Of a DNA stretch of 17,643 nt, positions 3,210 through 4,857 are shown in pieces. The translations under genes were made by a program, and so were the position numbers. Position 1 is the first letter of the stretch; each line of letters opens with the position of its first letter. The notes beneath the pieces are model-generated. The model saw only the letters and a list, made by a program, of their open reading frames with translations, did not search any database and was not told the DNA's origin. This DNA is from a virus, in the IMG/VR virus record IMGVR_UViG_3300045988_044263, one strand, 5' to 3'.

Positions 3210-4670
3210 ATGCGAGAGCGTCGAACGGCGGTAACGGACGGTGCAACACTATTGGCGGATGACGGCGTGGAACCATTGACGGCGACGGCCGTTATCCGTC
3301 TCACCATGCTCGACCATCATACGCGCGTATGGTGTGCTCACGGATGGCAGGACATTAAGCCCATAGCCGCCGAACTGTTGGCACGACTCCCGTTGCAACC
3401 GAACCCAGCCAAGGACGGTGTATGGGGCACGTTCAACATTCGCGGGCACTTCTACAGTTTTCGCGTGCGCATGGGCGGTACCACCGTGGATTTTCTGGAC
3501 GTGCGCAATGTCACACGTGACGATGGCCTGAATGTTTCACGTGAAACGTTCGGCGGCACGGACGATTTGGAAACCACGTGGAACGTTGCACAGGAATGCG
3601 CCGCCCTGAACCTCAGGGGCACGACCATAGCATCAATGGCAATGACCGACTACATTGATGGCGATTACGCCGGATTCAAACGCCATTTCCCGCCATTGGA
3701 CAGGGGCGACTATCACCGGATGCGCCCCGCCTACTATGGGGCGATAGTGCACAGCAAGCCGGGCGAATACCGGAATTGCCGGAGTTGGGACGTGAACAGT
3801 CTCTATCCGAGCATCATGCACGATGCGCCAATGCCCGTAGGCTCACCCATATGGTATGACGGCGAATATCGACACGACAATGATTATCCGCTACATATCG
3901 ATGTTATCGCGTTTGACGCGCGATTGAAAACGGGAAAAACGGCGACGCTCACCAATATCCTGCCTGTATGGGGGTATGAGGGCGAACGCTTGGATAGCAC
4001 GCTCGGCGTCGTTACCATGCCCGTTACGGATGTGGATTGGGAAACGCTGACCGAAAACTATGACATCCACGTGTGGGAGCACGTGGGCGGCTGGAAGTTC
4101 CGCAAATCACACGGGTTATATTGTGCATACGTGGACAAATGGTTTCACGTGAAACAGGCCGCAACCGGAGAGCGTAGGCAGATAGCGAAACTGCTGCTGA
4201 ACTCGCTGGTGGGGAAATTCGGTGCCTCGCTCTACCGTCCCATGTTGCATCCGAAGCCGTCCGTGGATGGTGGCGTGGATTTTACCGTGGACAAACCCGA
4301 GTCGGCCAGCAGTCTGGCGTGGCTGCCGACCGCCGCATTTATCAACGCCTGCGGACGGCGAATACTATCCCGCGCAATGAACGCGAACGCCGACCGCGTA
4401 CTTTACGCCGACACCGACGGCGTGATATTGGAAGGGTTGGACACACCCTTTGGTATCGAAACGGATGACCGGAAACTAGGGGCGTGGAAAAACGACCATA
4501 CCTATGAGAGGCTCCGTATTCTCGGCAATCGTAAATATTGCGGTGTGGAGACGAGTGGCGATACGGTAATGCGTTTGAGTGGCGTGCATCGTGCCGCTCC
4601 TGTCCTCTATGATGAGTTTCTGCCGGGGTCACGTCATCTCAATGACGACGGCCATGCTTTCGTGCTATAA
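3210..4670 (+). CDS. Family-B, protein-primed DNA polymerase (phi29 gp2-like), 486 aa
   Basis: Recognised motifs:
- Motif A: SWDVNSLYPSIM (3789-3812 core).
- DYPLHI block, identical to phi29.
- Motif B: AKLLLNSLVGKFG (4188-4223).
- A TPR2-length insertion.
- Motif C: LYADTDGV (4404-4421).
- RKY near the C-terminus.

The start is placed at ATG 3210, after AAAAAGGA (3196-3203). The ORF track extends it to 3162. Confidence 0.93.
   Translation: MRERRTAVTDGATLLADDGVEPLTATAVIRLTMLDHHTRVWCAHGWQDIKPIAAELLARLPLQPNPAKDGVWGTFNIRGHFYSFRVRMGGTTVDFLDVRNVTRDDGLNVSRETFGGTDDLETTWNVAQECAALNLRGTTIASMAMTDYIDGDYAGFKRHFPPLDRGDYHRMRPAYYGAIVHSKPGEYRNCRSWDVNSLYPSIMHDAPMPVGSPIWYDGEYRHDNDYPLHIDVIAFDARLKTGKTATLTNILPVWGYEGERLDSTLGVVTMPVTDVDWETLTENYDIHVWEHVGGWKFRKSHGLYCAYVDKWFHVKQAATGERRQIAKLLLNSLVGKFGASLYRPMLHPKPSVDGGVDFTVDKPESASSLAWLPTAAFINACGRRILSRAMNANADRVLYADTDGVILEGLDTPFGIETDDRKLGAWKNDHTYERLRILGNRKYCGVETSGDTVMRLSGVHRAAPVLYDEFLPGSRHLNDDGHAFVL
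3534..3547. repeat. Copy 1 of the 14-nt perfect palindrome GTTTCACGTGAAAC
   Basis: Read directly from the sequence. It lies inside the pol CDS, with codon phase gtt tca cgt gaa acg. The flanks extend it to the near-palindrome AATGTTTCACGTGAAACGTT. Confidence 0.9.
4142..4155. repeat. Copy 2 of the 14-nt perfect palindrome GTTTCACGTGAAAC
   Basis: Read directly from the sequence. It lies inside the pol CDS in a different codon phase (ttt cac gtg aaa cag). Confidence 0.9.
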
Positions 4671-4671
4671 T
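4663..4671 (+). promoter_or_regulatory. Extended -10 consensus TGCTATAAT overlapping the pol stop codon
   Basis: Exact TGNTATAAT match at the start of the 181-nt non-coding gap. The same 9-mer recurs at 15729. Confidence 0.4.
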
Positions 4672-4677
4672 GGTCGG

Positions 4678-4845
4678 TAGCGGGATGTGCGTCCCAAGTC
4701 GATTCGATGGCCCGACCGTAAGGCAAGTCGGTAAGGCGATTCGGTCGGATGTAGACGTGCGTAGCCAGCGCCCAGCGACGGCGAGGGAACCCGCACAGCC
4801 CAGCAACCCGGCATGACGGCGTGATTGCTGTCATGCCACTTACTT
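4678..4845 (+). ncRNA. Candidate structured non-coding RNA (pRNA-like?), regulatory leader, or early/late switch region
   Basis: There is no credible CDS between pol and the scaffold gene. The stretch is bounded by a promoter-like element (4663-4671) and a strong hairpin (4810-4837). It contains internal direct repeats and alternative pairings. The boundaries are guesses. Confidence 0.25.
4810..4837 (+). terminator. Strong hairpin (terminator-like) before the late genes
   Basis: GGCATGACGGCG / TGAT / TGCTGTCATGCC forms 12 bp: 8 perfect pairs, then 4 more of which 2 are G.U. It is followed by CACTTACTTT, a weak U-tract. Confidence 0.45.
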
Positions 4846-4857
4846 TAAGAGGTGATT

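What the first reader, a model, noticed from the sequence alone, without database searches (positions are those of the whole stretch)
4663..4851. Promoter-to-hairpin bounded, repeat-rich 181-nt gap at the replication/structural boundary: candidate prohead RNA or early-late switch
The stretch between the pol stop (4670) and the scaffold start (4858) is the largest unassigned region outside the ITRs.

**Boundaries.** It opens with TGCTATAAT (4663-4671), an extended -10 consensus. It closes with a 12-bp hairpin (4810-4837). A transcript from about 4678 to 4845 would be about 165 nt.

**Direct repeats.**
- GTCGGTA at 4673 and 4727, and GTCGGAT at 4744
- GTAAGGC at 4718 and 4731
- GTGCGT at 4687 and 4757
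- CCAGCG at 4765 and 4772

**Structure.** There is a small hairpin, GGGAT/GTGC/GTCCC (4682-4695). There are also mutually exclusive helices: CCGACC (4712-4717) can pair with GGTCGG at either 4672-4677 or 4743-4748.

**Interpretations.** phi29-type packaging motors (connector plus gp16 ATPase, both present here) require a ~170-nt pRNA, and nothing else in this genome is an obvious pRNA gene. Alternatively this is the regulatory switch region; phi29 places its p4-controlled early and late promoters at the analogous boundary. It could also be a structured late-operon leader.

A 43-codon ORF (4685-4816, MCVPSRFDGPTVRQ...) fits inside the region but has no SD.
Basis: partly seen in the sequence, partly recalled or inferred. 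Interest (0 to 1): 0.65.

Follow-up and report, generated by a model that had tools for sequence, protein, structure and literature searches.

The report
Candidate packaging RNA in Bifidobacterium-type phage
The gap between the polymerase and scaffold genes of this phi29-like gut phage holds a conserved, separately transcribed, about 160-nt structured RNA gene; its fold matches the phi29 packaging RNA, which is so far known only from Bacillus phages.

Summary
TGCTATAAT (4663-4671), the 12-bp hairpin (4810-4837), the repeats and the 43-codon ORF are all where stated.

The window is a complete 17.6-kb phi29-like genome whose closest isolates infect Bifidobacterium.

The gap is not coding and is not an alternative-helix switch. 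It is a small-RNA gene (about 4680-4840) that is more conserved than the flanking genes. It is found in the same position in five diverged clades whose RNA sequences are largely unalignable.

Covariation supports every helix:
- Window clade plus c76: 95.9% of cells paired against 84% in shuffles, with 21 pairs changed on both sides.
- BD811 clade: 98.1% against 92%, with 22 such pairs.

The fold has the phi29 pRNA topology:
- a long bulged helix closing the 5' and 3' ends;
- a three-way junction;
- one arm with a 5' internal loop and a 6-nt-loop hairpin;
- a second hairpin with a 5-nt loop;
- a 3' hairpin domain.

The internal loop and the 5-nt loop stay complementary while their sequences differ by clade: GGC/GCC, UGGCA/UGCCA, GACUA/UAGUC, RCCAC/GUGGY.

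The Rfam pRNA model does not match, and function is untested. My best reading is a diverged prohead RNA (about 0.6).

The parts
4642..4647 (+). Weak -35-like hexamer ATGACG, 18 nt upstream of the -10 box.
   Evidence: Promoter scan, 10 of 12 matches with TG extension. Not needed if the extended -10 box suffices (inference).
4663..4671 (+). Extended -10 promoter TGCTATAAT, overlapping the pol stop codon.
   Evidence: T-G-n-T-A-T-n-A-T is invariant or nearly invariant in 78 relatives. The same box sits at the same place in c76, L333, BD811 and BadAztec (TGCTATAGT). The motif occurs 7 times against 0.4 expected in the genome.
4672..4679 (+). Variable spacer between the -10 box and the RNA. The predicted transcription start is at about 4679-4680.
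   Evidence: This is the only poorly conserved stretch of the gap. Helix A starts 6-9 nt after the -10 box in every clade. No start site has been mapped.
4680..4701 (+). Helix A, 5' strand (pairs with 4779-4804).
   Evidence: Pairs are 4680-81/4803-04, 4682-84/4799-4801, 4686-91/4792-97, 4693-95/4785-87 and 4698-4701/4779-82. Compensatory changes include UA<->CG, GC<->AU, CG<->UA and GC<->UG/CG.
4704..4710 (+). Helix P3, 5' strand, the top of helix A below the junction (pairs with 4772-4778).
   Evidence: 4706-4776 changes G-C to A-U in 12 relatives. 4709-4773 changes G-C to A-U in c76.
4712..4748 (+). First arm of the junction. It comprises helix P4 (4712-18/4742-48, C-like), the 5' internal loop UAAGGCA (4719-4725, CE-like), and the E hairpin (4726-30/4737-41) with 6-nt loop GUAAGG (4731-36).
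   Evidence: 5 of 7 P4 pairs and 2 of 4 E pairs change on both sides. The same arm is seen in L333, BD811 and BadAztec. GGC at 4722-24 is invariant in 33 of 34 sequences.
4749..4758 (+). Single-stranded junction linker AUGUAGACGU.
   Evidence: It is conserved within the window clade and c76 (GGAUGUA), but is 0 nt in L333 and different in BD811.
4759..4771 (+). D-like hairpin, with stem 4759-62/4768-71 and 5-nt loop AGCCA (4763-67).
   Evidence: The pair 4762-4768 is UA 48, UG 15, CG 15. The stem sequence differs in c76, L333 and BD811 while the hairpin is kept. The GCC of the loop is complementary to GGC at 4722-24.
4772..4804 (+). 3' strands of P3 and helix A, including the asymmetric C-rich loop AACC (4788-91).
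4805..4809 (+). Single-stranded linker AACCC between the two domains.
   Evidence: It is variable in length and sequence among relatives.
4810..4837 (+). 3' hairpin (12 bp, loop UGAU). It serves as a domain-II-like element and a terminator-like stem.
   Evidence: Found by the terminator scan. 6 of 11 pairs show compensatory changes. The loop context GUGAUUG is shared with the L333 and BD811 clades.
4838..4847 (+). Weak U-rich tail ACUUACUUUA.
   Evidence: It passes the T-run rule of the scan. The BD811 clade has a proper AUUUUAUUU tract instead.
4848..5199 (+). Shine-Dalgarno sequence AGAGGUG and a small acidic scaffold-like gene (ATG at 4858), the first late gene.
   Evidence: There is no Pfam or PHROG hit. 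The role is inferred from its position before the major capsid gene.
9517..10473 (+). Connector (phi29 gp10 family), the presumed docking partner.
   Evidence: PF05352, E = 2.7e-43. The N-terminus MSRSRKNQNRRGG is strongly basic. In phi29 the N-terminal RKR motif is needed for pRNA binding (PMC12084888).
14376..15572 (+). gp16-type packaging ATPase, the presumed partner of helix A.
   Evidence: PF05894 Podovirus_Gp16, E = 2.7e-44; phrog_2150, E = 2.7e-65.

Best explanation
The gap is a gene for a stable, non-coding, structured RNA of about 160 nt.

**Transcription.** It starts from the extended -10 promoter that overlaps the pol stop codon. It ends, fully or partly, at the 3' hairpin.

**Domain I (about 4680-4804).** A 24-bp bulged helix joins the 5' and 3' ends and opens into a three-way junction.
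- One arm carries a 7-nt internal loop on its 5' side and ends in a small hairpin with a 6-nt loop.
- The other arm is a short hairpin with a 5-nt loop.
- The internal loop and the 5-nt loop are complementary.

**Proposed mechanism.** I propose that this RNA is the prohead (packaging) RNA of this phage lineage.
- As in phi29, the two loops would pair between molecules, so that several copies form a ring on the basic N-terminal end of the connector.
- The long helix would project outward and dock the gp16-type ATPase that pumps the protein-primed genome into the prohead.

**Shown here.**
- The RNA gene exists.
- Its structure is supported by covariation.
- The loop complementarity changes with clade.
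- The topology equals that of phi29 pRNA.
- The motor proteins are present.

**Inferred.**
- That the RNA is a discrete stable transcript.
- That the loop pairing is intermolecular.
- That it binds the connector and ATPase.
- That it is needed for packaging.
For: **1. Context.**
- The window is a complete phi29-like genome with 315-bp inverted terminal repeats, a protein-primed type B polymerase, a Phi29_MCP capsid protein, a gp10 connector and a gp16 ATPase.
- The closest isolates are Bifidobacterium phages, at 37-44% capsid identity.

**2. Selection.**
- The RNA stretch is more conserved (0.88-0.96) than the flanking coding DNA (about 0.77-0.90) across 79 relatives.
- 1-nt indels occur, and 29 of 77 relatives have a broken ORF, which excludes coding.

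**3. Position.**
- An unannotated 180-230 nt gap with the same promoter box lies upstream of the scaffold-like gene in BD811P2/P3, BP1, BadAztec1 and BadAargau2.

**4. Structure.**
- Window clade plus c76: 95.9% of cells paired against 84.3% shuffled (0 of 500). Slid controls give 31-40%. 21 of 50 pairs change on both sides.
- BD811 clade: 98.1% against 92.1%, with 22 of 38 pairs changed on both sides (0 of 500).
- L333 folds into the same structure on its own, z = -4.1.

**5. Discrete gene.**
- In the BD811 clade the 3' hairpin is followed by AUUUUAUUU and then a second TGATATAAT promoter before the scaffold gene.

**6. Topology.**
- The minimum-energy abstract shape [], with a nested first arm, is the same for phi29 domain I and for the window, c76 and L333 RNAs.
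- The order of elements is the same.
- The E hairpin has a 6-nt loop (UUGAGU in phi29 and in L351).
- The D loop has 5 nt.
- A single-stranded linker is followed by a 3' hairpin domain.

**7. Loop-loop complementarity by clade.**
- Window clade: GGC/GCC.
- c76: UGGCA/UGCCA.
- L333: GACUA/UAGUC. L350 has GACUG/UGGUC, kept by two wobble pairs.
- BD811: [G/A]CCAC/GUGG[C/U]. Here G-C is seen 61 times, A-U 8, G-U 8 and A-C 0, with 0 of 10,000 permutations as good.
- A cognate 5-bp run has a chance probability of about 0.03 per clade. Non-cognate combinations between the c76/window, L333 and BD811 clade groups reach at most 4 bp.

**8. Connector.**
- Its N-terminus is strongly basic, like the pRNA-binding RKR end of phi29 gp10.

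**9. No rival candidate in the genome.**
- The other long gap (6952-7253) is not conserved in BD811 or BadAztec.
- Model R1 finds one copy only in the window.
Against: - The Rfam pRNA model (RF00044) gives no hit in the window, L333, BD811P3, BadAztec1 or c76. The thresholds were E <= 10 for the window and E <= 1 for the others. On phi29 it scores 145 bits. There is no detectable sequence homology.
- The gene sits between pol and the scaffold gene, not near a genome end as in phi29.
- In the window's own clade the 3' hairpin has only a weak U-tail and is followed directly by the Shine-Dalgarno sequence. The RNA could therefore be the 5' part of the late mRNA.
- In the window clade the loop pairing is only three invariant G-C pairs, which alone is not significant (P(>=3) is about 0.5).
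- In the BadAztec clade only ACC/GGU could be found, and the D hairpin is unresolved.
- The loop pairing could be intramolecular, a tertiary contact as in many three-way-junction RNAs.
- There is no CCA bulge on the 5' strand of helix A.
- No expression, prohead-binding or packaging data exist.
- It is not established that non-Bacillus phi29-like phages use a pRNA at all (PMC11476376).
Confidence: 0.6

Rival explanations
1. The RNA is a cis-acting leader of the late operon: an attenuator, a riboswitch-like element or a protein-binding leader. Domain I would sense a signal and modulate termination at the 3' hairpin, or translation of the scaffold gene.
For: - In the window clade, c76 and L333, the hairpin lies 10-20 nt before the Shine-Dalgarno sequence of the first late gene, with no second promoter between.
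- A three-way junction with a loop-loop contact followed by a terminator stem is also the plan of some riboswitches (own knowledge).
- The hairpin passes the terminator rule.
Against: - In the BD811 clade a U-tract terminator and a new TGATATAAT promoter separate the RNA from the late genes.
- Domain I folds the same with or without the terminator. The 5' arm of the terminator has no strong upstream partner (-10 against -20 kcal/mol for the hairpin), so no antiterminator is evident.
- The junction strands are not conserved between clades (10 nt, 0 nt, or different sequence), which is unlike a ligand pocket.
- The kissing sequences differ between clades, which is unusual for riboswitch loops (own knowledge).
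- There is no Rfam cis-regulatory hit.
Confidence: 0.15
2. The RNA is a trans-acting small RNA with another role. Examples are regulation of host or phage mRNAs, sequestration of a host protein, or an anti-defence decoy. Its resemblance to pRNA would then be convergent.
For: - It has its own promoter and terminator.
- It is strongly conserved.
- It has no homology to pRNA by covariance model.
- The conserved 3' hairpin loop GUGAUUG could be a protein site.
Against: - There is no extended single-stranded seed that is conserved across clades.
- What is conserved across clades is the architecture and the mutual complementarity of two loops, which points to self-association or a tertiary fold rather than target pairing.
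- It is the only RNA conserved in all clades of a phage group whose motor type is the one known to need an RNA.
Confidence: 0.2
3. The gap encodes a small protein (ORF 4685-4816, or 4670-4816), or it is an unconstrained spacer whose features are chance.
For: A 43-48 codon ORF fits the gap.
Against: - The ATG is present in only 10 of 77 relatives.
- The frame is cut to 5 or 22 codons in 29 of 77.
- There are 1-nt indels.
- No ORF is shared with c76, L333, BD811 or BadAztec.
- There is no Shine-Dalgarno sequence.
- Conservation exceeds that of the neighbouring genes, and paired columns covary.
Confidence: 0.02

Closest known systems
phi29 prohead RNA (pRNA; Rfam RF00044 Phage_pRNA) of Bacillus phages phi29, B103, M2/Nf, SF5, GA-1 and relatives
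   Same: - It is encoded by a phage with a gp10 connector and a gp16 ATPase.
- It is a two-domain RNA of about 160-175 nt with its own promoter.
- In domain I the 5' and 3' ends pair in a long bulged helix.
- It has a three-way junction.
- The first arm has a one-sided internal loop directly 5' of a small hairpin with a 6-nt loop.
- The second arm is a hairpin with a 5-nt loop.
- The internal loop and hairpin loop are complementary, with sequences that differ between phages.
- A single-stranded linker is followed by a 3' hairpin domain (PMC5066667; PMC12670572).
   Different: - There is no sequence or covariance-model similarity.
- The hosts are Actinobacteria (Bifidobacterium), and G+C is about 60% against about 38%.
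- The gene lies between pol and the scaffold gene and runs in the same direction as all the large genes, not at the left end.
- The junction linker is 0-10 nt rather than UUU.
- Domain II is a single 22-28 nt hairpin that doubles as a terminator.
- The C-rich asymmetric loop of helix A is on the 3' strand.
- Ring formation and the packaging role are untested.
Three-way-junction riboswitch aptamers with loop-loop contacts (for example the purine riboswitch) followed by a terminator
   Same: - A closing helix, a three-way junction, two hairpin arms whose loops pair, and then a terminator-like hairpin before a gene (own knowledge).
   Different: - The closing helix is 24 bp and is not coupled to the terminator.
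- The junction is not conserved.
- The loop sequences covary between clades rather than being fixed.
- In one clade the downstream gene has its own promoter.
- There is no Rfam match.

Membership tests
phi29-type prohead RNA (pRNA) | Scores at or above the gathering threshold with the Rfam RF00044 covariance model. | tested here: not met
   There is no hit at E <= 10 in the whole window or in 4640-4870. There is none at E <= 1 in L333, BD811P3, BadAztec1 or c76. The positive control, phi29, scores 145 bits.
phi29-type prohead RNA (pRNA) | The encoding phage has the phi29-type motor: a gp10 connector and a gp16 ATPase without a nuclease-type large terminase. | tested here: met
   PF05352 connector, E = 2.7e-43. 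PF05894 Gp16, E = 2.7e-44.
phi29-type prohead RNA (pRNA) | Domain I of about 120 nt, with the 5' and 3' ends paired in a long bulged helix A. | tested here: met
   Domain I spans 4680-4804. Helix A plus P3 makes 24 bp in six segments, with compensatory changes.
phi29-type prohead RNA (pRNA) | A three-way junction of helix A with a C/E arm and a D arm, in that 5'-to-3' order. | tested here: met
   The abstract shape and the order of elements match the phi29 fold. The arms are supported by covariation.
phi29-type prohead RNA (pRNA) | Complementarity of at least 3 nt between the CE (right-hand) internal loop and the D (left-hand) hairpin loop, kept while the sequences differ between phages. | tested here: met
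   The pairs are GGC/GCC, UGGCA/UGCCA, GACUA/UAGUC (GACUG/UGGUC in L350) and RCCAC/GUGGY. In BD811, A-C never occurs (0 of 10,000 permutations).. The BadAztec clade shows only a weak ACC/GGU.
phi29-type prohead RNA (pRNA) | The loop pairing is intermolecular and builds a multimeric ring on the prohead. | not testable with these tools
   Sequence cannot tell intramolecular from intermolecular pairing. This needs native gels, AFM, cryo-EM or loop-swap genetics.
phi29-type prohead RNA (pRNA) | A three-base CCA bulge in the 5' strand of helix A that binds the ATPase. | tested here: inconclusive
   There is no such bulge on the 5' strand. A conserved asymmetric C-rich loop lies on the 3' strand: AACC at 4788-91, UCCC/UCUC in c76 and ACC in L333.
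phi29-type prohead RNA (pRNA) | A 3' domain II separated from domain I by a single-stranded linker. | tested here: met
   The linker is 4805-09 and the hairpin is 4810-37, with 6 covarying pairs. It is simpler than the 44-nt domain II of phi29.
phi29-type prohead RNA (pRNA) | The connector has a basic N-terminal end that binds the RNA (RKR in phi29). | tested here: met
   The N-terminus is MSRSRKNQNRRGGALHPRGNYAKAR. The requirement in phi29 is taken from PMC12084888. Binding itself was not tested.
phi29-type prohead RNA (pRNA) | Present on proheads, required for DNA packaging, and absent from virions. | not testable with these tools
   No experimental data are available.
Riboswitch or attenuator leader | An alternative (antiterminator) pairing that competes with the terminator and is coupled to the sensor domain. 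| tested here: not met
   Domain I is unchanged in the transcript truncated before the 3' arm. The best upstream duplex with the 5' arm is -10.2 against -20.3 kcal/mol for the hairpin. This is a weak test based on thermodynamics only.
Riboswitch or attenuator leader | Always physically coupled to the regulated gene. | tested here: not met
   The BD811 clade has a U-tract terminator plus a second promoter between the RNA and the gene.

The most novel reading that the evidence does not exclude
This is a true ring-forming prohead RNA that shares ancestry with phi29 pRNA but has diverged beyond sequence recognition. An RNA component of the packaging motor would then predate the split between the Firmicutes-infecting and Actinobacteria-infecting phi29-like phages.
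Probability: 0.45. Interest if true: 0.85.

Novelty: new variant of a known kind. Interest (0 to 1): 0.72.

Why it matters
**Current state of knowledge.**
- pRNA is the only known RNA that is an essential part of a viral DNA-packaging motor.
- A 2024 review and a 2025 Infernal survey report it only in Bacillus-type phi29 relatives (PMC11476376, PMC12670572).
- Whether the many other phi29-like phages need such an RNA is an open question.

**What this candidate offers.**
- It has the same architecture but an unrelated sequence.
- It is present in hundreds of human-gut contigs and in cultured phages (BD811P1-3, BP1, BadAztec), which makes the question directly testable.

**If it is confirmed.**
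- It would show which features of pRNA are essential: the topology, the loop code and the E-loop.
- It would date the RNA-dependent motor to before the Firmicutes/Actinobacteria host split.
- It would give RNA nanotechnology a set of G+C-rich three-way junctions and orthogonal kissing pairs.

Tried and rejected
- **Megablast of the whole window against phage genomes.** No match.
- **Rfam at permissive thresholds.** Tried on the whole window, on the gap alone and on four relatives. Nothing relevant was found.
- **Covariance model R1 (window clade plus c76).**
  - It finds L333 at 35 bits.
  - It does not find the RNAs of BD811, BadAztec, Curtobacterium or Arthrobacter phages.
  - A single model across all clades could therefore not be built, and the clades were compared by structure.
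- **Two IMG/VR scans added no new clade.**
  - The scan with P0084 returned only the window clade again.
  - The scan with the L333 capsid found no close relatives. These were obtained by protein look-up instead.
- **BadAztec clade.**
  - The minimum-energy fold is contradicted by covariation of P4.
  - The D hairpin and the loop pairing stayed unresolved with 5 distinct sequences.
- **Unbiased column-pair scan of the BD811 alignment.** It is dominated by phylogenetic noise beyond the known helices.
  - Alternative helix GGTCGG 4672-77: rejected, because the region is not conserved.
  - ORF: rejected.
- **Gap 6952-7253 as a rival pRNA site.** Rejected, because it is absent from the BD811 and BadAztec genomes.
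- **Curtobacterium and Arthrobacter gaps.** They were folded, but I could not assign the template with confidence.
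Full report
**What the window is.**
- It is a complete linear phage genome of 17,643 bp with perfect 315-bp inverted terminal repeats.
- All large genes lie on the + strand:
  - a phi29-type SSB;
  - a type B protein-primed DNA polymerase (3162-4670);
  - a small acidic scaffold-like gene (4858-5199);
  - a Phi29_MCP major capsid protein (5221-6951);
  - a tail knob, a gp10-family connector (9517-10473) and a lower collar;
  - a CHAP hydrolase;
  - a gp16-family packaging ATPase (14376-15572);
  - a holin and a GH25-LysM endolysin.
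- There is no nucleotide match to any phage isolate.
- By capsid protein, the nearest isolates are Bifidobacterium phages BadAztec/BadAargau (44%), BD811P1-3 and BP1 (37%).
- Close relatives are abundant in human-gut metagenomes.

**Checking the observation.**
  - TGCTATAAT lies at 4663-4671 and contains the pol stop codon.
  - The 12-bp hairpin at 4810-4837 is the best terminator-like site in the genome.
- The gap folds better than all 200 shuffles (z = -3.5).
- It has more repeated 6-mers and 7-mers than shuffles do.
- TGNTATAAT occurs 7 times against 0.4 expected, so the box is a plausible promoter type for this phage.
- Two statements are wrong or unsupported.
  - The gap is not the largest unassigned region. 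The stretch from 6952 to 7209/7253 is longer.
  - The 'mutually exclusive' partner GGTCGG at 4672-4677 lies in the only 7 nt of the gap that are not conserved.

**It is a gene for an RNA, not a protein and not a spacer.**
- Across 79 relatives with 89-94% capsid identity, the stretch 4680-4810 is more conserved than the flanking coding DNA (0.88-0.96 against about 0.77-0.90 per-site homozygosity).
- Conservation begins sharply at AGCGGG, 7 nt after the -10 box.
- The ORF is not conserved.
  - Its ATG is present in 10 of 77 relatives.
  - 1-nt indels occur.
  - The frame is cut to 5 or 22 codons in 29 of 77.
  - No ORF is shared with other clades.

**The same element in diverged clades.**
- An unannotated gap with the same promoter box lies directly upstream of the scaffold-like gene in BD811P3 (228 nt), BD811P2, BP1, BadAztec1 (178 nt) and BadAargau2.
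- I collected five clades:
  - the window clade, with 78 distinct sequences;
  - c76, at 76% capsid identity, with 11 sequences;
  - L333, at about 68%, with 5 sequences;
  - BD811, at about 37%, with 77 sequences;
  - BadAztec, at about 44%, with 5 sequences.
- Between the more distant clades the RNA sequences cannot be aligned. A covariance model built from the window clade plus c76 finds L333 at 35 bits but not BD811 or BadAztec.
- In the BD811 clade the 3' hairpin is followed by AUUUUAUUU and then a second TGATATAAT promoter before the scaffold gene. There the RNA is a transcription unit of its own.

**Structure.**
- On the window-plus-c76 alignment (A2), 95.9% of cells form standard pairs.
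  - Shuffles give 84.3% (0 of 500).
  - Slid structures give 31-40%.
  - 21 of 50 pairs change on both sides, spread over helix A, P3, P4, the E stem and the 3' hairpin.
- On the BD811 alignment (A4) the figures are 98.1% against 92.1%. 22 of 38 pairs change on both sides against 11.3 in shuffles (0 of 500).
- L333 folds into the same structure on its own (z = -4.1).
- In BadAztec, P4 covaries (GGUG/CACC, GGCG/CGCC, AGCG/CGCU). This overrules the minimum-energy fold.
- In window coordinates the elements are:
  - helix A: 4680-4701 with 4779-4804;
  - P3: 4704-10 with 4772-78;
  - P4: 4712-18 with 4742-48;
  - internal loop: 4719-25;
  - E hairpin: 4726-41, with loop GUAAGG;
  - linker: 4749-58;
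  - D hairpin: 4759-71, with loop AGCCA;
  - linker: 4805-09;
  - 3' hairpin: 4810-37.

**Comparison with phi29 pRNA.**
- I folded the real phi29 pRNA (NC_011048, 147-320, minus strand) as a control.
- Its dot-bracket plan is helix A, then helix C, a one-sided 9-nt internal loop, the E hairpin (4 bp, 6-nt loop UUGAGU), the C 3' strand, a short linker, the D hairpin (5-nt loop), the helix A 3' strand, a single-stranded linker, and domain II.
- The window, c76 and L333 RNAs have the same order of elements and the same abstract shape.
- The E loop is UUGAGU in L351, UUGAAU in L333, UUAAGU in BadAztec and GUAAGG in the window clade.
- The defining pRNA property is base pairing between the CE loop and the D loop, with sequences that differ between phages (PMC5066667; PMC12670572). 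Here the 3' part of the internal loop and the D loop are complementary in every well-resolved clade, each time with a different sequence:

| Clade | Internal loop / D loop | Note |
|---|---|---|
| window | GGC / GCC | invariant; GGCA/UGCC in two variants |
| c76 | UGGCA / UGCCA | |
| L333 | GACUA / UAGUC | |
| L350 | GACUG / UGGUC | both changes keep pairing by wobble |
| BD811 | [G/A]CCAC / GUGG[C/U] | |

- In BD811, 71 of 77 sequences are complementary at all five positions. The variable pair is G-C 61 times, A-U 8, G-U 8 and A-C never (0 of 10,000 permutations).
- A 5-bp run between a random 8-mer and a random 5-mer has probability of about 0.03. Non-cognate combinations between the c76/window, L333 and BD811 clade groups reach at most 4 bp.
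- The connector N-terminus (MSRSRKNQNRRGG) is basic, like the RKR end of phi29 gp10 that binds pRNA.

**What does not fit.**
- RF00044 does not match any of these RNAs, while it scores 145 bits on phi29.
- The gene is internal to the genome, not terminal.
- There is no CCA bulge on the 5' strand of helix A, only a C-rich asymmetric loop on the 3' strand.
- In the window's own clade the loop pairing is three invariant G-C pairs, which alone is not significant.
- In the same clade the hairpin has a weak U-tail directly before the Shine-Dalgarno sequence, so part or all of the transcripts may read through into the late genes.
- Sequence data cannot say whether the loop pairing is between molecules or within one.

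**Rivals.**
- *Leader or riboswitch.* This is disfavoured for three reasons.
  - The BD811 clade has a terminator and a second promoter between the RNA and the late genes.
  - No antiterminator is evident.
  - The junction strands are not conserved.
- *A trans-acting RNA of another function.* This cannot be excluded. However, what is conserved is architecture and mutual loop complementarity, not a single-stranded seed.
- *Coding and chance.* Both are excluded.

**Verdict.**
- A real, conserved, structured small-RNA gene: confidence about 0.95.
- With the topology and the covarying loop code of a prohead RNA.
- In a phage lineage where no pRNA has been described.
- That it functions as a pRNA: about 0.6.
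- It fails the sequence-family test for RF00044, so I file it as a new variant of the pRNA kind, not as a member of that Rfam family.

Noticed in passing
window 6949-7045: A second TGATATAAT box overlaps the capsid gene stop codon. It is followed by two conserved hairpins (about 6960-6990 and 7009-7041, the latter followed by UUUGU). This could be a second small transcript of about 85 nt, or a terminator module. There is little covariation, and the element is absent from the BD811 and BadAztec genomes, where this gap is only 68-83 nt.
   Followed up: partly
window 7204-7233 and 3530-3547: A perfect 30-bp palindrome, AAGGGAGTGTTTCACGTGAAACACTCCCTT, lies directly after the best promoter-like site (7174-7201), just upstream of the tail-knob gene's ATG (about 7253). 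Its core GTTTCACGTGAAAC recurs inside the pol gene. It looks like an operator.
   Followed up: no
window 1-315 and 17329-17643: The inverted terminal repeats are 315 bp and 100% identical, which is very long for a phi29-like phage (phi29 has 6 bp). They have extreme strand skew (G+T-rich, GC skew +0.42, AT skew -0.61) and many GTTTTGT-like repeats. The repeat ends just before the first start codon at each end.
   Followed up: no
window 17009-17322 (minus strand): This is the only minus-strand gene (about 82 codons, 17322-17075), with a strong terminator at 17040-17009. It reads inward from the right repeat. BD811P3 and BadAztec1 have the same layout. The weak Rfam hits here (Trp_leader, rimP, GcvB) are due to the terminator only.
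   Followed up: partly
window 2154-2241: A palindrome, GGCAACGTCCCTATAGGGATGTTGCC (2154-2179), follows the SSB gene. A run of 10 G (2232-2241) lies just before the GTG of the 314-codon ORF at 2252 (terminal-protein position). The run is either an unusual ribosome-binding region or a homopolymer prone to slippage or assembly error.
   Followed up: no
window 3098, 4663, 5746, 6949, 15729, 17163 (+) and 10064 (-): TGNTATAAT occurs 7 times against 0.4 expected (0 of 200 shuffles), 6 of them on the coding strand. Several sit at gene ends or starts. The phage seems to rely on extended -10 promoters.
   Followed up: partly
window 4820-4827; L333 2083-2090; L081 about 4806-4813: The loop region of the 3' hairpin, GUGAUUG, is the same in the window, L333 and BD811 clades although the stems differ and covary. 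This suggests a role beyond termination, for example a protein contact.
   Followed up: no
L087 3985-4178 (Curtobacterium phage Prophecy); L088 4993-5294 (Arthrobacter phage Anjali): More distant actinobacterial phi29-like phages also keep a 190-300 nt unannotated, strongly folding gap directly upstream of the scaffold-like gene, even where an extra gene separates it from pol. Prophecy has a hairpin with a UUGAAA loop. I could not assign the template fold.
   Followed up: partly
A4 columns 15-24 and 113-120 (BD811 clade, e.g. L081 4676-4686 and 4769-4776): The motif CGAUUUUC occurs on both sides of the central domain. In three divergent members it is replaced by GGCU on one side and AGCC/GGCC on the other. 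These two segments may therefore pair with each other instead of forming the small local hairpin.
   Followed up: no
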